DNA of 40,000 bases, from the NCBI RefSeq assembly GCF_002286975.1, contig NZ_NSKB01000001.1, positions 24,733-64,732 on the forward strand. The letters are read 5' to 3'. The notes beneath the pieces are model-generated. The model worked only from the letters and a program-made list of their open reading frames with translations. It made no database searches and was not told the origin of the DNA. Of this stretch, positions 712 through 19,782 are shown piece by piece. Source of the stretch: Halomonas salipaludis. Lineage in GTDB: Bacteria; Pseudomonadota; Gammaproteobacteria; Pseudomonadales; Halomonadaceae. The translations under genes were made by a program, and so were the position numbers. Numbering within the stretch: the first letter of the stretch is position 1; each line of letters opens with the position of its first letter.

Positions 712-921
712 CATATCCCTCTCTTCCCCTAATGCTTTTGTGCAGTGTTGACTTTGTTGGCGTTGCTCAGCGCATAGCGTTTGTTTACGGTAAGGCAAAG
801 GCCACTGAAGATGGCCGTTTCACCAAGACGTACGCAAGGGCTGCCGCATCAGGGATGACACTGCCATCATCCATGTTGCCGGGTAGGGGCGGTAGCGTGC
901 CTGGACTCCGTCATCAACCAC

Positions 922-1823
922 TCAACCCAGCGGGCTGCGAACACCGGCGAACTCCTTACCCAGCACATGTGTATAGATCTGGGTAGTTTCCACGCTCTTG
1001 TGCCCCAGCAACTCCTGAACGGTGCGGATGTCCGTTCCTTGGCTAAGTAACTGCGTCGCGAAGCTGTGCCGCAAAGTATGGCAGGAGCCGGGGCGTGGTA
1101 ACGATGCTGCTCGCATCGCATTCTTGACGGCCTTCTGCACCGCTGAAGGATGGATATGGTGAAGAACGACCTTGCCGGCATCATCGAAGCAGGGGCGGCT
1201 AGCTGGAAATAGCCATTGCCAGGCCAGGGATGTCCCAGCATTGGGATACTTACGGTCCAGCGCGTGGGGAAGCGTCACAGGAACGCTATCATGGCTCAGG
1301 CGATGTTCAAGTTGCTGTCCTTGTCGCCCTTTCCGGCTCTTATCGTCAGTACCTGACGGTCGAAGTCGACATCGCGTACACGTAGGCGGCAGGTTTCGAG
1401 TACCCGTAATCCCGAGCCATACATCAAGGAGGCCATCAAGTGCACGGGGCCCGAGAGTTGATTCAGCACGCGAACGACCTCTTCGTGAGACAGCACCACC
1501 GGCAGTCGGCGCGGTCGCTTGGCGTGCGCGAAATCACCAATATCGCCGAGAGGCTGATCGAGCACATGGCGATAGAGGAACACGATGGCGTTCAGGGCTT
1601 GGTTCTGTGTGGCCGCTGCCACATGGCGCTGCACCGCAAGGTGCTCCAAGAAAGCCCTGACCTCGGGGCCACCCATGCTAGCGGGATGACGCACGCCATT
1701 GAAACGAATGAAGTAGCGTATCCAGTAGCAGTAGGTTTTTACGGTGCGAGGGCTGTAGCGTCTCACCTTCATGGTGGCCTTCACGCGATCCATGAGCTTT
1801 GGAGGTCGGCTGTGCGCGTCCAT
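922..1823 (-). pseudogene. intI: Integron integrase IntI (tyrosine recombinase), disrupted by frameshift and internal deletion
   Basis: The N-terminal ORF 1296..1823 ('VRRYSPRTVKTYCYWIRYFIRFNGVRHP...[16 protein letters not shown]...[10 protein letters not shown]') ends prematurely. The C-terminal ORF 922..1278 in another frame carries '[19 protein letters not shown]...[12 protein letters not shown]...[38 protein letters not shown]' (RHRY catalytic boxes plus the IntI-specific ALxRKYP segment). Only about 15 codons separate GKGDKD from LPxAL, versus about 35 in IntI proteins as I recall them. Confidence 0.85.
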
Positions 1824-2057: not shown

Positions 2058-2564
2058 TTGAATATTGAAGTAAGTAGTGAAAAATCCGGTGATGAGGCGA
2101 GAATACATCATGTTACAGAACAGGCGTTTTTAAGCGCGCCTCACACTGATCATACCGAGCAGTTCATTGTAGATGCTCTTCGCCGCGCGGGAGCGCTGAC
2201 GATCTCTCAAGTGGCTAAAGCTGATGGAGAAATTATTGGTCATGTTGCGATTTCGCCGGTCACTCTTTCAGATGGTGCAACCGGCTGGTTTGGGCTTGGG
2301 CCAATATCTGTTCTTCCTGAATTTCAAGGGCTTGGTATTGGATCTAAGCTAATGCAGAGTTCTCTTGACGCGCTTGAGGAAGTGGGTGCATCTGGCTGCG
2401 TGGTGCTCGGCGACCCTGCTTATTATGGGCGCTTCGGGTTCGAGGTTGTAGATGGGCTGGTCTTCCCCGGTGTGCCAGCTGAGTATTTTCAGGCGCTATC
2501 GTTTTCCGGCGAGTTCCCACAAGGGGAAGTTTCGTACCATGAGGCATTCTCAGCCCAGGGTTAA
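2058..2564 (+). CDS. GNAT family N-acetyltransferase (cassette 1)
   Basis: TTG start 6 nt after the AAGAGG RBS. Acetyl-CoA motif 'VLPEFQGLGIGSKLMQ'. The stop lies in attC R''. Confidence 0.8.
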   Translation: MNIEVSSEKSGDEARIHHVTEQAFLSAPHTDHTEQFIVDALRRAGALTISQVAKADGEIIGHVAISPVTLSDGATGWFGLGPISVLPEFQGLGIGSKLMQSSLDALEEVGASGCVVLGDPAYYGRFGFEVVDGLVFPGVPAEYFQALSFSGEFPQGEVSYHEAFSAQG

Positions 2565-2642
2565 CAAGGCCAAGCACAGCGACAGCTTTTCCGTTGCGGC
2601 TTCGCCTCCACTACAAAGCTGCGCGTGTTGGCGGCGTTAGCC
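2559..2642 (+). other. attC site 1
   Basis: R''-like GGTTAAC ... R' GTTAGCC. About 85% identical by eye to attC 20 (19699-19782). Confidence 0.7.
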
Positions 2643-3720: not shown

Positions 3721-4656
3721 ATGGAATATCAATTAGATATTAAAGAAAATGCGCTCGATAGTTTTAATGAGGCGCTGGCTAAGTTTGAGCAAGGTGAAAA
3801 TGGTGAATTACGCCATTATAAATTTGCCATTTTGCATCTCTCTCATTTTTTAGAGTTGGTTCTGAAGCTTTATGTAGCGTCGGTTGATAAAAATCTTGTT
3901 TTCAGCAAGTGCTACAAGCATGTCGAGAAACGAGCCAAAAAGGAATCTATAAATCTACATCAGGCATATCAGTTACTTTGCAAAGAAGGCTTTGATTTCG
4001 GATCATTGCTAGCGAGCATCCCCCACCCACATACGATCACGCTCGACCAAGCGCTAGAGTTTTCTAAATGTGAAAAATGTGGCGTTACTGGTGTAGATTT
4101 TGTCGACGTAGATTTTTGTAACGACATCGAGTGGCTAAAAGGACTTAGAAACAATATAGAACATTATCAGTTTAGGCTTCCACCGAAGGAAGTGCGCCTT
4201 TGTATTGGTCGTTTGGTTCGAGGGGTAGCAGAATTTGTTGATATTTTCAGTCTGTTTGATCTTGAAAGTGAAGTTGGTAAAGAGAGTTATCATGTTTTTG
4301 AAGTTTTGGCAGACGAATACGCTCACCTTCTAAAAGAGGCTGAAAGAGAGGTTGTAGAAAAAAAGGAAGAAACGTACAGGGGAGTAAGGCCAAAGCACTA
4401 CGTGTTTATCGAATGGAACGTTTATCAGTGCCCTGAATGCTCGAACAATACAATGATACCATCAGACGATTCCAGCACCGGGTACAAATGCACCTTTTGC
4501 TCAAATGAGGAAAGCGACGAAATAGAAATTCCTTGTGATTGCTGCGGAGCGATGGCAACAGTAGAAGAAATGGCTACCTGGAAAATGGATGATGGTACCA
4601 TCGAGAATCGGTGTTATTTTTGTTCTGGACAATACTATGCTGATAAAGATGACTGA
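3721..4656 (+). CDS. HEPN-like (RNNIEH) protein with a C-terminal 4x CxxC zinc-ribbon region (cassette 4)
   Basis: 311-aa ORF. It carries 'LKGLRNNIEHYQF' (RNxxxH, the classic HEPN RNase motif). The C-terminus has CPEC...CTFC...CDCC...CYFC. Confidence 0.6.
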   Translation: MEYQLDIKENALDSFNEALAKFEQGENGELRHYKFAILHLSHFLELVLKLYVASVDKNLVFSKCYKHVEKRAKKESINLHQAYQLLCKEGFDFGSLLASIPHPHTITLDQALEFSKCEKCGVTGVDFVDVDFCNDIEWLKGLRNNIEHYQFRLPPKEVRLCIGRLVRGVAEFVDIFSLFDLESEVGKESYHVFEVLADEYAHLLKEAEREVVEKKEETYRGVRPKHYVFIEWNVYQCPECSNNTMIPSDDSSTGYKCTFCSNEESDEIEIPCDCCGAMATVEEMATWKMDDGTIENRCYFCSGQYYADKDD

Positions 4657-4728
4657 CATAACAATCGCGTCAATAGGGACTGGTTTTCCGCTGGCGCTCC
4701 AAACCAGCCCATTACGCGGGCGTTAGGG
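4656..4728 (+). other. attC site 4
   Basis: R'' ACATAAC ... R' GTTAGGG (4722-4728). Confidence 0.7.
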
Positions 4729-4758
4729 TCACGAACTAGTAGGAAGTATTTGGGAACT

Positions 4759-5721
4759 ATGGAAAAGAAATTTCGGGGAAACGTCGCTGCGGCAAAAAGG
4801 CTGCTACTCACTAGGGCAGGAAATAGATGTTCCAACCCGAACTGTGGTGTTCGCTTGATTACTGATGACGGAATTCCCATCGCGGAGATCTGCCACATAG
4901 AGGCAATTTCGGAAGGTGGTCCCAGATACAACCCAGAAAAAATAATTAACAAAGAAGACGCTCGGAAAAGAATTGCTGATCTAGATAATTTAATCATTCT
5001 CTGTCCAAGCTGCCACAGGCTAGTGGATAGTGATCCTATCTATTACGATGCAGATTGGCTTAGGACCGCTAGAGAGGAACACGAGCGAAAAGTCTTAAAT
5101 CAACTCGAATCAAAAAGCGCTCCTACTTCTAATAAGGAACTAAATCGCACGGTCACAAGCTTTCACCAAAGCCTGGATATCTGGCGAGAGAATATTGAAA
5201 ATGGAGATGAAGAGTTCTGGCAATCCTTGTTTAAAACCAATCCAAAGCTAATAGCCCAAGCTATTCCGAACCATATTATTCAGATTGGCGATAAATGTTA
5301 CCTTGGTGGGAAGGGTGCTGAGAATAAAGGCGGGAAGGTCGTTGATTTTCTATATGCAACCAATTTTAGCAAGAATTTTGTTGTTGTCGAGATTAAAACT
5401 CCAAAAACAAGGTTAATCGGAAAGGAGTATAGGACTTGTGTTTTCTCTCCAGCTGAGGACTTGACTGGCTCTATTGTGCAAGTCCTGTCATACAAAACTA
5501 CTTTGTTGAAGGATTTCCACTCTGTCCAAAGAGACAACTCCTTTCAAGCTTTCGAACCTACCTGCCTTGTTATTGCCGGCAACTTAGAAATGGAAGCTGA
5601 CGATGCGGGTAAGCGTGCTTCGTTTGATCTGTATCGCTCAAACTCGAACGTGCTAATAATCACCTACGATGAGCTTTTTTACAAAATAGAAAGTCTTTTG
5701 GAGCTGCTCGATGAAGGCTGA
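4759..5721 (+). CDS. HNH endonuclease domain fused to a DUF4263 / Shedu (SduA-like) nuclease domain (cassette 5)
   Basis: N-terminus: 'CSNPNCGV...CHIEAISEGGPRYN...NLIILCPSCHRLVD' (HNH). C-terminus: 'EEFWQSLFKTNPKLI...VVDFLYATNFSKNFVVVEIKTPKT...GSIVQVLSYK', matching the DUF4263 PD-(D/E)xK core as I recall it. ATG 4759 is preferred; TTG 4750 is possible. Confidence 0.75.
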   Translation: MEKKFRGNVAAAKRLLLTRAGNRCSNPNCGVRLITDDGIPIAEICHIEAISEGGPRYNPEKIINKEDARKRIADLDNLIILCPSCHRLVDSDPIYYDADWLRTAREEHERKVLNQLESKSAPTSNKELNRTVTSFHQSLDIWRENIENGDEEFWQSLFKTNPKLIAQAIPNHIIQIGDKCYLGGKGAENKGGKVVDFLYATNFSKNFVVVEIKTPKTRLIGKEYRTCVFSPAEDLTGSIVQVLSYKTTLLKDFHSVQRDNSFQAFEPTCLVIAGNLEMEADDAGKRASFDLYRSNSNVLIITYDELFYKIESLLELLDEG

Positions 5722-5723
5722 GA

Positions 5724-5795
5724 CCCTAACAATCGCGTCAATCAGGACGCTCGCTAGCTCGCGCCTATTACGCGGGCGTAAGGCGTAAGGTAAGG
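5724..5795 (+). other. attC site 5 with degenerate or duplicated R' (GTAAGG x3 instead of GTTAGG)
   Basis: R'' CCCTAAC (5724-5730). The 3' end reads gcGTAAGGcGTAAGGTAAGG. Its flanks resemble attC 4. Confidence 0.6.
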
Positions 5796-5803
5796 ACTCA
5801 ATT

Positions 5804-6268
5804 ATGAGAATTGATTATCTTGAGGATGCACCGGATTTTATCCCGTTACTTGCTCGTGAAATGGCGGAGCACTGGAGCAGCATTATCCCTGGAGAATGCT
5901 ATGAGCGACGGTATGCGAAGCTAATTTCCCACCAGAATCGCGATCAGCTACCACTCGCATGGGTAGCGCATGAAAATGGTGTTCTGTTGGGCACAAGTGC
6001 TTTGAGAGTTTGTGACTTGGAAGGGAGAGAAGACTTAACCCCTTGGCTTGCAGGTATCTTTGTCATGCCGGATTACAGAGGCCGTGGAATCGCAGCTAAA
6101 CTTTGCGAAGTTGCAGAAAGGAAGGCGTGGGAATGGGGAGTTGCAAGATTATATCTGCACACTCCTGATCAGCAAGGGCTCTATCGAAAACTAGGGTGGA
6201 GTAGTTTAGAACTAGAGGATTGGAATGGGGTTCAGACAGAAATTATGGTCAAAGATCGCGAAGCCTAA
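5804..6268 (+). CDS. GNAT family N-acetyltransferase (cassette 6)
   Basis: 154 aa with 'VMPDYRGRGIAAKLCE' (acetyl-CoA binding motif). Confidence 0.8.
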   Translation: MRIDYLEDAPDFIPLLAREMAEHWSSIIPGECYERRYAKLISHQNRDQLPLAWVAHENGVLLGTSALRVCDLEGREDLTPWLAGIFVMPDYRGRGIAAKLCEVAERKAWEWGVARLYLHTPDQQGLYRKLGWSSLELEDWNGVQTEIMVKDREA

Positions 6269-6965: not shown

Positions 6966-7042
6966 GCCTAACAAATAAAGGCACCGGACATCAAAACCGC
7001 CGCTTCGCTCTGGTTTTGCTGCCGGTGCTTTAGGCGTTAAGG
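6966..7042 (+). other. attC site 7
   Basis: R'' GCCTAAC ... R' GTTAAGG (7036-7042). Confidence 0.8.
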
Positions 7043-7054
7043 GAAGCCAAAATT

Positions 7055-7152
7055 AAAGGGGGTAGATCGATTTTATTTTGATCAATGTAAATGGAGAAGG
7101 TTGATTTGTTTTTAACCAGGCTGACCGATTTAAAATCTATCTGACCCCCTTT
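7055..7152. repeat. 98-bp element bounded by imperfect terminal inverted repeats (MITE / Tn3-derived-like)
   Basis: Left AAAGGGGGT-AGATCGATTTTA versus reverse complement of the right end AAAGGGGGTCAGATAGATTTTA. GGGG-initiated IRs are reminiscent of Tn3-family ends. Confidence 0.4.
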
Positions 7153-7182
7153 GGTTCATTGCCCCCGTTCCCCGCCTAGCCC

Positions 7183-7917
7183 CTAAACCTGCGCGTATCC
7201 CCCGTCAACGAACACCTCGCTCCCTGTCATAAAGCTGCTATCGTCGGACGCCAGGAACGCCACCGCACCTGCGGTTTCCTTGGGATCGCCCAGACGCTCA
7301 AGCGGTACGGTCCGTTTCATTTCGCTCAGGGCTTCGGATGGGAGCAATTCCATCAGCTTGTCTGTTCTGGTCGGGCCAGGAGACATGACGTTCACGCGAA
7401 TGCCGGTGCCCCTGAGATCATGGGCCCAACTACGCACCAGGTTTCTGACGGCCGCCTTGGAGGCGCTGTAGATGCTCATCGCGGGGGTGCCCATGCTGCC
7501 GACCGTGGAACCGGTGAGAATGATGGAGCCGCCGTTCGTCATCAGGGGAAGGGCCTTCTGGACGGTGAAGAGGGTGCCTTTGACGTTGATGTCGAAGATG
7601 TAGTCGTAGTGCTCCTCGGTGATCTGTCCCAGGCTCGCGAATTCGCCGACCCCCGCGTTGGCCACCAGTACGTCCAGTTGCCCTTTCTCTTTCTGGACTG
7701 TCTCGAATACGCGGTCGAGATCCTCCGGCTTCGTCACATCTGCCTGGAGACCCCTGGCGTTGGATCCCAGTACCTCAGCCGCGTTGTCGAGGACGTCCTG
7801 GCGCCGTCCGACAATGAAGACGAAGGCGCCTTCGTCGATGAGGCGTTGGGCCGAGGCCAGGCCGATGCCGCTGGCTCCGCCTGTGATTAGTGCGATTTTA
7901 CCGTTTAGTCGACTCAT
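7183..7917 (-). CDS. Short-chain dehydrogenase/reductase (SDR) family oxidoreductase
   Basis: 'IALITGGASGIGLA' (TGxxxGxG) and 'YSASKAAV' (YxxxK). Start MSRLNGK at 7917 is preceded by AAGGAG. Confidence 0.85.
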   Translation of the reverse strand: MSRLNGKIALITGGASGIGLASAQRLIDEGAFVFIVGRRQDVLDNAAEVLGSNARGLQADVTKPEDLDRVFETVQKEKGQLDVLVANAGVGEFASLGQITEEHYDYIFDINVKGTLFTVQKALPLMTNGGSIILTGSTVGSMGTPAMSIYSASKAAVRNLVRSWAHDLRGTGIRVNVMSPGPTRTDKLMELLPSEALSEMKRTVPLERLGDPKETAGAVAFLASDDSSFMTGSEVFVDGGYAQV

Positions 7918-8010
7918 GGTTGGGTCTCCTTGTGTGTTGACTCGATTCGCTTTCACGATATATAAGTCACTTACAAATGTTCAAGTATGCACCTTTTGGT
8001 AAGTATCGTT

Positions 8011-8550: not shown

Positions 8551-8641
8551 CCATAACCAAGCGGTCAACCGGACACCATACCCCTTGCGGGCTATGGTTC
8601 CCTACGCTCCGCTTCGGTGCCGGTTACCGCTAGCGTTAAGT
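8551..8641 (+). other. attC site 8
   Basis: R''-like CCATAAC ... R' GTTAAGT (8635-8641). It closes a two-gene, higher-GC cassette. Confidence 0.65.
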
Positions 8642-8651
8642 GGAGAATTCG

Positions 8652-9260
8652 ATGCTCCAAGGCAGTTGGGATAAGGTCGCCAGTGACGTCGATTTCAATC
8701 TAGAAATTGATCTAGCGCGATTTCTTGACTTGATCAGCCGAAAAGCTAAGGTGCTAGACTTTGGGTGTGGGTATGGGCGGATTTCCAACGAACTTACTGA
8801 GTCCGGGTACACTGATGTAATGGGCGTTGATCCTTCCTGCGCAATGATCGAACGTGGAAGGAAGGCGTTTCCAGGGTTGCCTCTCCTGCATTTGGATGGG
8901 ATGGATCTTCCGTTCAGCGAGAATGCATTCGATGCCGTCGTCATTTGCGCGGTACTTACGTGCATTCCTTCACTTGATGAGCGGGGTAGAGTGGCTGCGG
9001 AAATAACCCGTGTGTTGAAGCCAGGCGGGGTTGTTCATATATCGGAGTTCTGTTCGGAAGAAAGTAAGAGCTTTATTTCCGGCCTCGGTTTACCGATGCG
9101 GTACAGTAGCCCGAAAGAGCTCCGCGACCTATTCGCTAGTTTTTCCTGCTTTCACGATGAGGTTGTGAGTGCAACTACTATGAGTGGTGATTCCACGTCC
9201 AGCTACCGCGCGTTCATCCGAAAGGCACTTAACAAAGCAATGCACGCGACAAGTGCGTGA
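8652..9260 (+). CDS. Class I SAM-dependent methyltransferase (cassette 9)
   Basis: 'VLDFGCGYGRIS' motif I. ATG 8652 follows GGAGA. Confidence 0.8.
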   Translation: MLQGSWDKVASDVDFNLEIDLARFLDLISRKAKVLDFGCGYGRISNELTESGYTDVMGVDPSCAMIERGRKAFPGLPLLHLDGMDLPFSENAFDAVVICAVLTCIPSLDERGRVAAEITRVLKPGGVVHISEFCSEESKSFISGLGLPMRYSSPKELRDLFASFSCFHDEVVSATTMSGDSTSSYRAFIRKALNKAMHATSA

Positions 9261-9300: not shown

Positions 9301-9762
9301 TTGAGCGAATTCAATTTCCGCCAAGCGCGATCAGGTGATCTTGTGGCGCTTGTTGAGATGCTTGCTGACGATGATCTCGGTCGAACTCGCGAGTCACCGG
9401 GTACGCCGCTTGATAACGGCTACGCGTCAGCGTTTGAAGCTATAGAAAAAGATCCGAACAACGAGATCATCATCTGCGAATCAGAAGGCGAGTTGCTTGG
9501 CATGCTTCAAATAACCTTCATACCCTACTTGACTTATATTGGAAGCTGGAGAGCCTTGATTGAAGGCGTCCGCGTCTCTTCGTCTCAAAGGTGGGCAGGA
9601 ATCGGCGGTCAGCTCTTCGAATGGGCCATCGAAAGAGCTAAAGAAAAAGGTTGCGTAATCGTCCAACTCACAAGCGATAAAAAACGTCCAAACGCCATCC
9701 GCTTTTACGAAAATCTCGGCTTCAAAGCGTCACATGAAGGAATGAAGCTATGGCTCAACTAA
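9301..9762 (+). CDS. GNAT family N-acetyltransferase (cassette 10)
   Basis: TTG start after AGGAG. Acetyl-CoA-like motif 'RWAGIGGQLFEWAIERAKEKG'. C-terminus 'RFYENLGF'. Confidence 0.75.
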   Translation: MSEFNFRQARSGDLVALVEMLADDDLGRTRESPGTPLDNGYASAFEAIEKDPNNEIIICESEGELLGMLQITFIPYLTYIGSWRALIEGVRVSSSQRWAGIGGQLFEWAIERAKEKGCVIVQLTSDKKRPNAIRFYENLGFKASHEGMKLWLN

Positions 9763-9765
9763 GGA

Positions 9766-9833
9766 GCCCAACAGGTCGCTGCAGTTGATGTCCGCTAGCG
9801 CGGCCACAACTGAGCTTTGGCGTGTGTACCAGG
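9766..9833 (+). other. attC site 10, 5' portion (R' core split by the group II intron and completed at 11673-11677)
   Basis: R'' GCCCAAC. Stem GCTGCAGTTG / CAACTGAGC with an extrahelical base. ...ggcGT|[intron]|TAGCC restores GTTAGCC. Confidence 0.65.
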
Positions 9834-11672
9834 CATGGCACAGAACTAGAGAGGTGAAAGTCCTCTTGCTAGGTGTTCGCAGAGCCGAAGGCTAGGAGAA
9901 GGGCAAGGGCGTCATCGCGAGGTGGGGTCTGGAGGAAGCGCAATCCAAAGCTGCGGGGCGACGAACAGCAACCCGATATGAGGTGTGGTACATCCGGGGC
10001 GAGCGGGCACGTGACCGCGAAGCCCTCCATCTGCGGCGGGGGTGTGCTTTATAAATCGGGCGTTTACGCAGCGACAGTTCTGTGTCTTACCCTGGGAGGC
10101 CTGTCAGTGGTTCAGGGAAAGAGCTGAACCCCGGGCAACCGGTGTTGACCGACAGGCAGGAGTCAGCAGAGGGCATAGTAGGTTCAGCCGTGGAACCGAA
10201 GGCCCGAACAGAGACAGGAGTTGAGTGTCCGTGCAGAGGAGCAGGATGGTATCAGCAAAGCAGCTCACGCTGCCCCTGACATTACCAGGGGATGAACCTG
10301 CGCCTGGAGAGCGGGCCCGTCCCGACTCCGCTTAACCCTCACCGTGGATGGCGCGCGTACTGAGCAAGGACAACCTCAGTCGTGCCCTGAAACAAGTTCG
10401 ACGTAACAAAGGTGCGCCGGGCATCGACGGCATGACGGTCGACGAGTTGCCGGACTATCTGCGCCAACACTGGCCAGCTATTCGCCAGCAGCTGATCCGG
10501 CAGACCTACCGACCGCAACCGGTGCGGCGAACCATGATCCCCAAGCCGCAAGGCGGTCTCAGGCCACTGGGTATTCCCACGGTCCTGGACCGTTTCATCC
10601 AGCAAGCGATTGCCCAGGTAGTCCAGCAAGATTGGGAACCTTGCTTCCATCCCCGCAGCTACGGCTTTCGCCCCGGACGCTCTGCGCATCAAGCGGTCCG
10701 ATACGGACAGCATTGCGCTCGGGAAGGCCGCAACTGGGTGGTGGATCTGGACCTGGAAGCCTTCTTTGACCGGGTGAACCATGATCGGCTGATGGCACGC
10801 CTGAAACGGCACACGCCGGACAGGCCGTTACTCAGGTTGATCAACCGATACCTGAAGGCAGGGGGCCAGATCGACAACTGCAAAGCCCCGACACCCGAAG
10901 GCGTGCCGCAAGGCGGGCCACTGTCTCCGGTGTTGGCGAATGTGGTACTGGATGAACTGGATTGGGAACTGCACCGGCGCGGTCTACGTTTTGCGCGCTA
11001 TGCGGATGACTGCCAGATATTGGTAGGCAGCCGTCGTGCGGGCGAACGCGTCATGGTGAGTCTAACGCGCTTTATCGAAGACTCACTGCGGCTCACAGTG
11101 AATACACGAAAGAGCGCGGTGGATCGGCCCTGGAAGCGCAGATTCCTGGGCTTCACCCTCAGCCGGAAAGGGCAGCGCTTGAAGGTGGCTAGCGAAGCCA
11201 TCTCCAAGCTGAAAGCCCGGATCCGGATACTGAGCCGCCGAACACGGGGCCACTCACTGGTCCAGGTGATCGCAGACCTGAAAGAGACCCTGCTTGGTTG
11301 GAAAGCGTACTTCGACGAAGCCGAAGTGCTGAGCTCGCTGCGGGATCTGGACAAGTGGATACGGCGGAGACTGCGAAGTTACGTGTGGAAGCAATGGGGT
11401 CGAAGGGGATATCGTGAACTGAGAAAGCGGGGCGTCTCGGTCAGGTTGGCCTGGAACACTGCGAAATCAGCTCATGGGCCGTGGCGCCTGAGCCGTTCGC
11501 CGGCACTGGCGCAGGCGCAGGCACTTCCCGCCCACTACTTCCGGTGCCGTGGACTGCCGGAATTGGCAGTACGGTAACGGGTTGAATCAAGTCACTGAAT
11601 CGCCGTGGTACGTGATCCGTATGCCCGGTGATGTGGGAGGAGGGGCATCGTGAGGTGCCTCCCTATCCCGAT
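9834..11672 (+). mobile_element. Group II intron, class C (attC-targeting type), about 1.84 kb
   Basis: 5' GTGTA.. (the GT repeat makes the 5' end ambiguous, 9832-9834). Internal RT/maturase ORF. DV-like 34-nt hairpin at 11599-11632 with a CGC triad. DVI hairpin at 11635-11669 with bulged A 11665, 7 nt from the 3' end ...GAT. Confidence 0.75.
10348..11577 (+). CDS. Group II intron reverse transcriptase/maturase (no endonuclease domain)
   Basis: 'NKGAPGIDGMTVDEL', 'GIPTVLDRFIQQA', 'PQGGPLSPVLANVVLDELD', 'RYADDCQILV' (YADD). 409 aa. Confidence 0.9.
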   Translation: MARVLSKDNLSRALKQVRRNKGAPGIDGMTVDELPDYLRQHWPAIRQQLIRQTYRPQPVRRTMIPKPQGGLRPLGIPTVLDRFIQQAIAQVVQQDWEPCFHPRSYGFRPGRSAHQAVRYGQHCAREGRNWVVDLDLEAFFDRVNHDRLMARLKRHTPDRPLLRLINRYLKAGGQIDNCKAPTPEGVPQGGPLSPVLANVVLDELDWELHRRGLRFARYADDCQILVGSRRAGERVMVSLTRFIEDSLRLTVNTRKSAVDRPWKRRFLGFTLSRKGQRLKVASEAISKLKARIRILSRRTRGHSLVQVIADLKETLLGWKAYFDEAEVLSSLRDLDKWIRRRLRSYVWKQWGRRGYRELRKRGVSVRLAWNTAKSAHGPWRLSRSPALAQAQALPAHYFRCRGLPELAVR

Positions 11673-19288: not shown

Positions 19289-19699
19289 TTGAAAAATATG
19301 TTAGAGAAAGGAAAAGAGGTTCTGTCGGAGCAGTCTTTCAGCTTGCTTTTGGGAGCAGAGTTGGAAGTTTTTGAGGCCGGAACTGCTGAGTTGAGTCTTG
19401 AAATTAGGGATGACCTCAAGCAAAACAATGGTTTTGCGCATGGTGGCGTCGTTAGCTATTTGGCTGACAACTGTATTACCTTTGCCGGAGCGTCGGTACT
19501 AGGAAACTGTGTCACTTCAGAGTACAAAGTAAACTATGTTAGGCCTGCGATCGGAGATAGATTGGTCGCTAGGGCAACAGTTTTATACTCAGGAAAACGT
19601 CAATCTACGTGTGAGTGTAAGGTATATGCCCAAACAGATTCCGAGGAAAAGTTGGTTGCGGCCTCTCTTGGAACAATAAACAAGATTGATGCATCGTAA
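19289..19699 (+). CDS. PaaI-family hotdog-fold thioesterase (cassette 20)
   Basis: 'NNGFAHGGVVSYLADNCITFAG'. TTG 19289 lies 7 nt after AAGGAG (alternative ATG 19298). Confidence 0.75.
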   Translation: MKNMLEKGKEVLSEQSFSLLLGAELEVFEAGTAELSLEIRDDLKQNNGFAHGGVVSYLADNCITFAGASVLGNCVTSEYKVNYVRPAIGDRLVARATVLYSGKRQSTCECKVYAQTDSEEKLVAASLGTINKIDAS

Positions 19700-19782
19700 T
19701 CTAACCAGGCCAGGCACAGCGACGGCTTTTCCGTTGCGGCTTCGCCTTCACTATAAAGCCGCACGTGCTGGCGGCGTTAGCT
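19699..19782 (+). other. attC site 20
   Basis: R'' ATCTAAC ... R' GTTAGCT. Near-copy of attC 1. Confidence 0.75.

What the first reader, a model, noticed from the sequence alone, without database searches (positions are those of the whole stretch)
4759..5721. Cassette 5: HNH nuclease fused to a DUF4263 (Shedu SduA-type) domain carried as an integron cassette
The C-terminal half ('EEFWQSLFKTNPKLI...VVDFLY...FVVVEIKTPKT...IVQVLSYK') matches my recollection of the DUF4263 PD-(D/E)xK core of the Shedu anti-phage nuclease. The N-terminal 95 aa form an HNH motif (CxxxxC...HIE...N...CPSCH). Shedu proteins are known to carry variable N-terminal sensor domains. A second, HNH, nuclease module in that position would make this a dual-nuclease variant. 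The degenerate attC downstream may lock it to the next GNAT cassette.
Basis: partly seen in the sequence, partly recalled or inferred. Interest (0 to 1): 0.7.

Follow-up and report, generated by a model that had tools for sequence, protein, structure and literature searches.

The report
Known HNH-Shedu defence gene, integron cassette
This gene encodes a Shedu anti-phage nuclease with an HNH domain at its front end, carried as a mobile integron cassette. The annotation is correct, but this domain combination, Shedu genes in integron cassettes and this exact protein are all already in public catalogues, so it is an ordinary find.

Summary
ORF 4759..5721 (+), 320 aa, has an N-terminal HNH domain and a C-terminal SduA_C/DUF4263 PD-(D/E)xK domain. 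All catalytic residues of both domains are intact. It is a genuine integron cassette. Copies 93-96% identical sit in at least two other arrays, and their homology starts exactly at G|TTAGGG and ends at the cassette's own attC.

It is not novel:
- The exact protein is RefSeq WP_095618851.1 (Halomonas salipaludis), already named as a Shedu SduA protein.
- PADLOC has an end-to-end model for this architecture (E=1.6e-91).
- Gu et al. 2023 list HNH_2 among Type 1D Shedu N-terminal domains.
- Darracq et al. 2024 report Shedu as the second most frequent defence system in chromosomal integron cassettes.

The "dual nuclease" reading is weakened. Across 98 family members the PD-(D/E)xK residues are essentially invariant. 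The HNH general-base His is kept in only 44, with at least 16 independent changes. The HNH fold therefore looks like a conserved DNA-binding or regulatory module whose catalysis is optional.

The "locked to GNAT" idea is not supported. The attC hairpin is intact, a GTA core is tolerated experimentally, relatives have other downstream neighbours, and the resident intI is a pseudogene.

The parts
4656..4728 (+). attC of the preceding cassette (cassette 4). Its R' core GTTAGGG lies at 4722-4728. The crossover G|TT between 4722 and 4723 marks the 5' boundary of the Shedu cassette.
   Evidence: The bottom strand folds into the canonical attC hairpin, -16.3 kcal/mol, z=-3.5. Three different upstream contexts (window, L012, L006/L010) converge exactly at G|TTAGGGTCACGAAC.
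4723..5778 (+). The Shedu gene cassette, 1056 bp from the TT of the upstream core to the G of its own attC core. It is cassette 5 counted from attI.
   Evidence: The same unit is found in at least two other arrays, at 93-96% protein identity, with different neighbours. The cassette count comes from the attC sites read.
4759..5721 (+). sduA gene for a 320-aa HNH-Shedu protein, identical to WP_095618851.1.
   Evidence: dN/dS against other cassette copies is 0.05-0.13.
4759..5043 (+). N-terminal HNH (beta-beta-alpha-metal) domain, aa 1-95. Zn ligands are C24, C29, C82 and C85. The general base is H46 (codon 4894-4896). N77 is the structural Asn. H86 and D90 are metal ligands.
   Evidence: Pfam HNH_2 and HNH. 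PADLOC Cap5-type effector models. PDB alignments put H46 on the 'AHI' His of Cap5 and the 'DHV' His of ScoMcrA. In the AF2 model, strands 43-46 and 78-81 and helix 83-91 form the fold.
5044..5205 (+). Helical linker, aa 96-149. It has a long helix at 98-118, a low-confidence loop at 124-130 and a helix at 129-144.
   Evidence: It aligns to the sequence just N-terminal to the nuclease domain of B. cereus SduA: query 94-318 against 8ti8 149-381. Secondary structure and confidence come from the AF2 model.
5206..5676 (+). SduA_C / DUF4263 PD-(D/E)xK nuclease domain, aa 150-306. Catalytic residues are D196 (5344-5346), E211 (5389-5391), K213 (5395-5397) and Q241.
   Evidence: Pfam E=2.9e-24. Foldseek match to 8ti9 (B. 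cereus Shedu nuclease domain): TM 0.87, rmsd about 2 A, 38% identity. E211, K213 and Q241 are invariant and D196 is kept in 97 of 98 family members.
5724..5784 (+). The cassette's own attC. R'' is CCCTAAC at 5724-5730. R' is GTAAGGC at 5778-5784, so the core triplet is GTA instead of GTT.
   Evidence: Relatives carry the same attC with a canonical GTTATG core. The bottom-strand hairpin is -11.2 kcal/mol, against -11.0 in relatives.
867..1823 (-). Integron integrase gene intI, inactivated. It has a frameshift and lacks about 23 aa relative to VchIntIA.
   Evidence: Three-frame translation. The alignment to 2a3v is split into residues 8-176 and 200-317. Pfam finds Phage_int_SAM_4 and a partial Phage_integrase domain on the N-terminal ORF only.

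Best explanation
This is a single-gene Shedu anti-phage nuclease of the catalogued subtype whose N-terminal domain is an HNH_2-type HNH fold (Type 1D in Gu et al. 2023). It is carried as a promoterless cassette in a chromosomal integron of Halomonas. By analogy with the solved B. cereus and E. coli SduA proteins, the C-terminal DUF4263 PD-(D/E)xK domains probably assemble into a tetramer and are the obligatory DNA-cutting effector. The N-terminal domain sits where other Shedu proteins carry their sensor or regulator. Here that position is filled by a zinc-stabilised HNH fold of the kind used as the effector in CBASS Cap5 and in the 9om4 HNH endonuclease chain. I infer that its conserved role in this family is to bind DNA, or a DNA-associated signal, and to gate the PD-(D/E)xK core. 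In this particular protein the complete H-N-H set is retained, so it may add a second cut, but the family does not need that activity. Shown: domain identity, intact residues, fold, cassette mobility, purifying selection and the pattern of His loss. Inferred: oligomeric state, the sensing role of the HNH domain and anti-phage activity.
For: Domain and family identity. The PADLOC SduA model PDLC00406 matches end to end at E=1.6e-91. B. cereus Shedu 8ti9 matches with TM 0.87. The subtype is catalogued: HNH_2 is under Type 1D in Table S3 of 10.1101/2023.08.10.552793. Catalytic asymmetry: in 98 family members, E211, K213 and Q241 are invariant and D196 is kept in 97. The HNH general base H46 is kept in 44, with at least 16 changes on a neighbour-joining tree. 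Replacements include F, M, A, L and V, which cannot act as a base. The Zn ligands, N77, H86 and D90 stay conserved. Both domains are under purifying selection among cassette copies: omega is 0.16-0.21 for HNH and 0.06-0.11 for the core, from small counts. Autonomy: the gene has different neighbours in integron arrays (L003, L004, L006-L017) and in other contexts (L001, L002). Mechanistic precedent: the N-terminal domain regulates B. cereus Shedu, and deleting it makes the protein toxic. The E. coli SduA N-terminal domain forms a clamp that senses DNA ends. Shedu is the second most frequent defence system in chromosomal integron cassettes.
Against: No experiment exists for any HNH-Shedu in the searched literature. 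This protein and its closest relatives (above 80% identity) all keep H46, so HNH catalysis could matter in this lineage. The residue equivalent to Y315 of the B. cereus octamer interface appears, by my residue count, to fall in a 7-residue gap of the query alignment. The B. cereus activation switch therefore cannot simply be transferred. No sigma-70-like promoter lies upstream of the gene, and it is the fifth cassette, so it may be poorly expressed here. The conservation of the Zn, N and H positions is partly imposed by my selection pattern. The unconditioned view is the alignment.
Confidence: 0.6

Rival explanations
1. It is a true dual nuclease. The HNH module is an oligomerisation-activated effector, as in Cap5 and SPARHA. 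The DUF4263 core supplies the scaffold and one cut, and HNH supplies the other, so both active sites are needed to make double-strand breaks in invading DNA.
For: All H-N-H and Zn residues are intact in this protein and in relatives above 80% identity. The closest HNH relatives are bona fide effector nucleases: Cap5 7rwm, 7rwk and 8fm1, and the HNH endonuclease chain 9om4 (PADLOC effector models). E. coli SduA on its own only nicks, so a second nuclease could complete a double-strand break. A dual-nuclease single-protein defence has a precedent in Upx (PMC13099982).
Against: The general-base His is lost in 54 of 98 family members, at least 16 times independently. These include relatives at 71-75% identity (P0004 and P0005, His to Ser) and whole Vibrio/Idiomarina clades with F or M. 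The family therefore works without HNH catalysis. The PD-(D/E)xK residues are never lost apart from one D-to-E change.
Confidence: 0.25
2. It is silent cargo. The gene is intact but effectively unexpressed in this host, stored in a frozen array with no current function.
For: It is the fifth cassette from attI. No promoter-like site lies upstream. intI is a pseudogene, so the cassette cannot be moved to the first position in cis. Darracq et al. describe chromosomal integrons as biobanks of cassettes that protect when moved to the first position.
Against: The ORF is uninterrupted with every catalytic residue intact. dN/dS is 0.05-0.13 against other copies. However, that selection could have acted before the cassette arrived here. 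This rival concerns expression state, not what the protein does.
Confidence: 0.1
3. It is a restriction-like or selfish nuclease rather than a Shedu-type sensor-gated defence. One option is a Type IV or modification-dependent enzyme with HNH as the reader-cutter. Another is an addiction module that stabilises the array.
For: HNH_2-family domains occur in McrA-type modification-dependent enzymes. There are weak hits to ScoMcrA 5zmm and EcoKMcrA 6ghc. Gu et al. propose that constitutively active Type 2 Shedu proteins act like restriction enzymes.
Against: No recognisable modification-reader domain is present. No cognate methylase or antitoxin is conserved next to the gene across contexts. The best full-length matches are all Shedu models.
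Confidence: 0.05

Closest known systems
Type 1D Shedu with an HNH_2 N-terminal domain (Gu et al. 2023, bioRxiv 10.1101/2023.08.10.552793, Table S3); PADLOC SduA model PDLC00406
   Same: Same two-domain architecture, with an HNH_2-type N-terminal domain and a C-terminal DUF4263 domain. The PADLOC model aligns over residues 3-316 of 320 at E=1.6e-91.
   Different: Nothing architectural differs. No member of this subtype appears to have been tested experimentally in the literature I could search.
Bacillus cereus B4264 Shedu / SduA (PDB 8TI8, 8TI9; Type 1A)
   Same: The linker and nuclease domain are homologous: E=9e-45 over query 94-318, 38-40% identity, TM 0.87. The D, ExK and Q catalytic residues are the same.
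   Different: Its N-terminal domain is an sPC4/Whirly fold, not HNH. The query appears to lack the loop carrying the octamer-interface Tyr (Y315 in B. cereus), because that stretch falls in a 7-residue gap by my residue count.
Escherichia coli SduA (PDB 8PS4, 8PS5; Loeff et al., DNA-end sensing)
   Same: DUF4263 core fold (Foldseek E=1.7e-9). It is a single-gene system with an N-terminal domain that acts as sensor.
   Different: Identity is only 18-20%. Its N-terminal domain is a clamp that recognises free DNA ends, and is unrelated to HNH.
CBASS Cap5 (HNH-SAVED; PDB 7RWK, 7RWM, 8FM1) and the HNH endonuclease chain 9OM4 cited in the SPARHA Argonaute-HNH paper
   Same: The N-terminal HNH domain is of the same subfamily. 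It shares the CxxC...(A/C)HI...GGPR...DNLxxLC..HH..D pattern and the long following helix.
   Different: In those systems HNH is the only nuclease and the C-terminal domain is the sensor or oligomerisation module. Here the C-terminal partner is itself a nuclease, and the HNH general base is dispensable across the family.
Defence systems in sedentary chromosomal integron cassettes (Darracq et al. 2024, bioRxiv 10.1101/2024.07.02.601686)
   Same: A single-gene, compact defence system carried in a chromosomal integron cassette. Shedu is reported as the second most frequent type.
   Different: That survey found 73% of cases in Vibrio. This one is in Halomonas, with an inactivated integrase.

Membership tests
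Shedu (SduA) | DUF4263 / SduA_C domain above the curated threshold | tested here: met
   PF14082 scores 86.5 bits against a cut-off of 27, E=2.9e-24. Fifteen PADLOC SduA models hit, the best at E=1.6e-91.
Shedu (SduA) | Intact PD-(D/E)xK catalytic residues (motif II D, motif III ExK, and the conserved Q) | tested here: met
   D196, E211, K213 and Q241 are present. They align with the VDFLY and EIK motifs of B. cereus SduA. E211, K213 and Q241 are invariant and D196 is kept in 97 of 98 relatives.
Shedu (SduA) | Fold of the nuclease domain matches solved SduA | tested here: met
   AF2 model with pLDDT 85. Foldseek match to 8ti9: TM(target) 0.87, rmsd 1.9-2.2 A, E=5e-15.
Shedu (SduA) | Single-gene system with no conserved partner gene | tested here: met
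   Neighbours differ in every context examined: L001, L002, L003, L004, L006-L011 and L012-L017.
Shedu (SduA) | Homotetramer assembly and anti-phage activity | not testable with these tools
   This needs SEC-MALS or cryo-EM and plaque assays.
Type 1D Shedu (enzymatic N-terminal domain, HNH_2) | N-terminal domain recognised as HNH_2 upstream of DUF4263 | tested here: met
   PF13391 scores 23.3 bits against a cut-off of 21, aa 36-90. HNH_2 is listed in the Type 1D row of Table S3.
HNH (beta-beta-alpha-metal) nuclease | H-N-H catalytic triad plus Zn-binding Cys/His ligands | tested here: met
   H46, N77 and H86 are present, with C24, C29, C82 and C85. H46 aligns with the catalytic His of Cap5 and McrA.
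HNH (beta-beta-alpha-metal) nuclease | General-base His conserved across orthologues, as expected if catalysis is the selected function | tested here: not met
   His is kept in 44 of 98 members. There are at least 16 changes by parsimony on a neighbour-joining tree. Replacements include F, M, A, L and V.
Integron gene cassette | 3' attC with R''-L''...L'-R' imperfect hairpin | tested here: met
   Bases 5724-5784 fold into the attC-type hairpin at -11.2 kcal/mol, the same architecture as in relatives.
Integron gene cassette | Canonical GTT core triplet (R' = GTTRRRY) | tested here: not met
   The window reads GTAAGGC, while relatives read GTTATG. A single-site GTA is tolerated by IntI1, at wild-type level or at most 2-fold lower (PMC2811028).
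Integron gene cassette | The same unit occurs in different arrays, with homology breaking at the G|TT crossover | tested here: met
   The window, L012 and L006/L010 share sequence from G|TTAGGGTCACG through to ...GCGGGCG| and diverge outside it. A Vibrio homologue shows the same pattern in L003 and L004.
Integron gene cassette | Adjacent functional integron integrase | tested here: not met
   intI at 867-1823 (-) is frameshifted and lacks about 23 aa. Relative L012 has an intact 324-aa intI.

The most novel reading that the evidence does not exclude
In the His-retaining branch that includes this protein, the Cap5-type HNH module could be a working second nuclease. It would be switched on by oligomerisation of the DUF4263 core, so that one polypeptide makes a coordinated double-strand break. 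The many His-less relatives would then be successive stages in which an effector nuclease was turned into a pure sensor domain. That would give a natural series showing how defence effectors become sensors.
Probability: 0.25. Interest if true: 0.45.

Novelty: already known. Interest (0 to 1): 0.2.

Why it matters
As an annotation it matters little. The protein, its architecture and its type of genomic carrier are all already catalogued. Two points have modest value. First, the cassette boundaries are unusually well documented here, because the same unit occurs in three arrays, so it is a clean example of a mobile Shedu cassette outside Vibrio. Second, the family-wide contrast is informative: the PD-(D/E)xK site is essentially invariant, while the HNH general base is repeatedly lost and the HNH metal and zinc ligands are kept. 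That gives a concrete, testable prediction for how this untested Shedu subtype works, with HNH as gate or DNA binder rather than obligatory cutter.

Tried and rejected
- **attC scanners.** My first three regex and alignment scanners missed most sites, because the extrahelical bases shift the arms. I read the intergenic sequences directly instead.
- **Misleading first fold of the downstream attC.** The first fold used boundaries 5722-5786 and gave no canonical hairpin (z=-0.65). This briefly suggested a decayed site. Refolding with boundaries matched to the relatives showed the hairpin is as stable as in mobile copies, so I rejected the 'decayed stem' idea.
- **NCBIfam.** It has no specific model for this protein.
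- **Phage and plasmid genomes.** tblastn against phage genomes found nothing. Among 72,556 plasmids, only one (Agrobacterium, 35% identity) carries the full-length architecture.
- **Source contig.** An exact-sequence look-up of the contig failed. The Halomonas salipaludis origin therefore rests on the 100%-identical RefSeq protein and on the roughly 65% GC flank.
- **Coupling with the GNAT gene.** I considered a functional Shedu-GNAT pair and rejected it. GNAT is never the downstream neighbour elsewhere, and at least three of the cassettes scanned between 2058 and 9762 in this array are GNATs anyway.
- **The mad2 hit.** I considered the PADLOC mad2 hit on ORF 8640-9260 as a defence lead. Pfam shows only a generic class I methyltransferase domain.

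Full report
**1. What is in the sequence**

A single ORF runs on the + strand from ATG 4759 to the stop at 5719-5721 and encodes 320 aa.

Pfam places SduA_C (PF14082, formerly DUF4263) on residues 150-306, at E=2.9e-24 and 86.5 bits against a cut-off of 27. It places two HNH models on the N-terminus. HNH_2 (PF13391) scores 23.3 bits against 21 on residues 36-90. HNH (PF01844) scores 21.9 bits against 21.4.

The HNH scores only just pass, but other evidence corroborates them:
- PADLOC's CBASS HNH-effector models hit residues 9-123 at E down to 1e-18.
- PDB sequence searches align the N-terminus with Cap5 (7rwm, 7rwk, 8fm1), the HNH endonuclease chain 9om4 and ScoMcrA. 9om4 is cited in a paper on SPARHA Argonaute-HNH systems.
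- In those alignments H46 lies on the catalytic 'AHI' or 'DHV' His.

- Zinc ligands C24, C29, C82 and C85.
- H46, N77 and H86, plus D90.
- D196, E211-x-K213 and Q241 in the PD-(D/E)xK core.

An AlphaFold2 model built on 43 homologues has mean pLDDT 85. Its C-terminal half matches the B. cereus Shedu nuclease domain 8ti9 with TM 0.87, rmsd about 2 A and 38% identity. It also matches E. coli SduA 8ps4. The N-terminal part matches Cap5 and EcoKMcrA.

**2. It is a real integron cassette, and a mobile one**

The window opens with a TetR gene, followed by an integron integrase gene on the minus strand at 867-1823. After that comes an array of same-strand ORFs, each followed by an attC-like imperfect palindrome. 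The array has 44-56% GC, against about 65% in the flanking chromosome. Counting from attI, the Shedu gene is the fifth cassette.

Copies at 93-96% protein identity (P0123, P0124) exist in metagenomic contigs, in two other arrays:
- In one array the gene is the second cassette, behind an intact 324-aa intI and a DUF4357 cassette, and is followed by a DUF6896 cassette (L012-L017).
- In the other it is followed by PhdYeFM/ParE toxin-antitoxin cassettes (L006-L011).

The three contexts are unrelated upstream. They become homologous exactly at G|TTAGGGTCACGAAC. They stay homologous through the gene and its attC (CCCTAACAATCGCGTCAAT...ATTACGCGGGCG|), and then diverge again. This is the textbook signature of a cassette.

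A 41%-identical Vibrio homologue is likewise a cassette in two different arrays (L003 and L004). More distant relatives sit outside obvious arrays. One is next to a giant helicase gene and another is next to a resolvase gene (L001 and L002).

The coding sequence is under purifying selection. dN/dS is 0.05-0.13 overall. Among close copies it is 0.16-0.21 for the HNH part and 0.06-0.11 for the core, from small counts.

**3. The downstream attC and the 'lock' idea**

The window reads GCGGGCGTAAGG, where the two relatives read GCGGGCGTTATG. Four observations argue against a lock to the GNAT cassette:
- With matched boundaries, the bottom strand folds into the same attC hairpin as in the mobile relatives, at -11.2 against -11.0 kcal/mol. 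An earlier fold with the wrong boundaries was misleading.
- Frumerie et al. (PMC2811028) measured a GTA core in one partner site. It recombined at wild-type level, or at most 2-fold lower, with IntI1. One caveat is that they restored the complementary base, whereas here an A:A mismatch remains.
- The downstream neighbour elsewhere is never a GNAT. GNATs are simply common in this array, with at least three among the cassettes scanned between 2058 and 9762.
- The resident intI is itself dead. The reading frame shifts after GKGDKD, and about 23 residues are missing relative to VchIntIA (2a3v residues 177-199). No cassette can therefore move without an integrase supplied in trans.

**4. How it most likely works**

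The solved Shedu proteins give the framework.
- In B. cereus SduA the DUF4263 domains form a tetramer that is autoinhibited. [quoted passage not shown]
- In E. coli SduA the N-terminal domains form a clamp that recognises free DNA ends. [quoted passage not shown]

The query shares the linker and nuclease domain with B. cereus SduA (residues 94-318, E=9e-45). It replaces the sPC4/Whirly sensor with an HNH fold.

The new piece of evidence here is comparative. I collected 98 proteins with this architecture.
- E211, K213 and Q241 are invariant, and D196 is kept in 97.
- The HNH general base H46 is kept in only 44.
- It is replaced by S, F, M, T, A, R, N, Y, Q, L, V or E.
- Parsimony on a neighbour-joining tree needs at least 16 changes, from a His-bearing root (unconditioned alignment).
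- Relatives as close as 71-75% identity carry Ser (P0004, P0005).
- The zinc ligands, N77, H86 and D90 do not vary. In one search this is partly imposed by my selection pattern.

A domain that keeps its fold and metal site but repeatedly loses its general base is being selected for something other than catalysis. Binding DNA, or gating the core, is the most likely role. I therefore rank 'PD-(D/E)xK effector gated by an HNH-fold N-terminal domain' first (0.6). I rank 'obligate dual nuclease' second (0.25). This particular protein keeps the full H-N-H set and could cut with both sites.

Two caveats apply. The B. cereus octamer-interface Tyr appears to fall in a 7-residue gap of the query (my residue count). 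No promoter-like site lies upstream, so expression at the fifth position may be low.

**5. Comparison with what is known, and novelty**

- The exact sequence is RefSeq WP_095618851.1 / PAU78834.1 from Halomonas salipaludis. NCBI names it 'Shedu anti-phage system protein SduA domain-containing protein'. UniProt names it 'HNH nuclease domain-containing protein' (A0A2A2F297).
- PADLOC v2 has an SduA model (PDLC00406, 326 positions) that aligns over residues 3-316 at E=1.6e-91. The architecture therefore already has its own profile.
- Darracq et al. report Shedu as the second most frequent recognisable defence system in chromosomal integron cassettes.
- A profile search of 1.84 billion cluster representatives found 15,437 Shedu-like proteins at E<=0.001. 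Among the best 150, roughly 35 to 45 clusters at 50% identity align from within the HNH part of the profile onward.
- One plasmid carries the full-length architecture (Agrobacterium, 35% identity). No phage genome does.
- I found no paper testing an HNH-Shedu experimentally.

The annotation stands and the novelty does not.

**6. Verdict**

The finding is real and the domains were called correctly. The architecture and its carrier are already known, and the exact protein is already annotated. Interest is 0.2. The residual interest lies in the asymmetry between the two active sites across the family. That asymmetry makes a clear prediction for an as yet untested Shedu subtype.

Noticed in passing
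window 867-1823 (-): The integron integrase gene is a pseudogene. The reading frame shifts after the GKGDKD motif, and about 23 aa are missing relative to VchIntIA (PDB 2a3v residues 177-199). The catalytic C-terminal half (HxLRH...Y) is still readable in another frame. A related array (L012) has an intact 324-aa intI.
   Followed up: yes
window about 9760-11600 (+); Rfam hits at 9911-10085 and 10125-10204; ORF 10348-11577: A group II intron sits directly after an attC-like sequence downstream of the GNAT cassette at 9301-9762. Rfam finds group-II-D1D4-3 (126 bits) and D1D4-1 (57 bits). The ORF is a reverse transcriptase-maturase (RVT_1 plus GIIM). It looks like an attC-targeting group IIC intron.
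   Followed up: partly
window 3721-4656 (+), with its attC at 4656-4728: The cassette just upstream encodes a 311-aa protein with no Pfam hit. It matches the PADLOC candidate defence family PDC-S64 (E=2.9e-17) and ends in CxxC-rich motifs. The arms of its attC (TAACAATCGCGTCAAT...ATTACGCGGGCGTTAGG) are almost identical to those of the Shedu cassette's attC, unlike the other attCs read in this array. This suggests that both cassettes come from the same source pool.
   Followed up: partly
L001 4960-5120: In the 81%-identical relative P0003, the Shedu attC keeps only its 5' half (CCTAACAATCGCGTCAA). It is followed directly by a different, complete attC. The upstream neighbour is a 1705-aa DEAD/UvrD helicase gene on the opposite strand. 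This looks like a decayed or recombined cassette remnant.
   Followed up: no
window 2058-2564, 5804-6268, 9301-9762 (+): At least three separate GNAT acetyltransferase cassettes lie among the cassettes scanned between 2058 and 9762. GNAT next to Shedu is therefore unremarkable.
   Followed up: yes
window 7043-7960: After the attC at 6966-7042 comes an AT-rich spacer. It is followed by a short-chain dehydrogenase gene (7183-7956) on the opposite strand to the rest of the array. I saw no obvious attC of its own, which is an irregularity in the cassette array.
   Followed up: no
window 2559-2642 and 19699-19782: Two 84-nt attC sites 17 kb apart are very similar to each other (same arms and central loop). 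This suggests related or duplicated cassettes within the array.
   Followed up: no
P0129, P0137, P0148: Some HNH-Shedu relatives are 394-445 aa long and carry an extra 90-135 residues upstream of the HNH domain. This would make a three-part architecture. I did not examine it.
   Followed up: no
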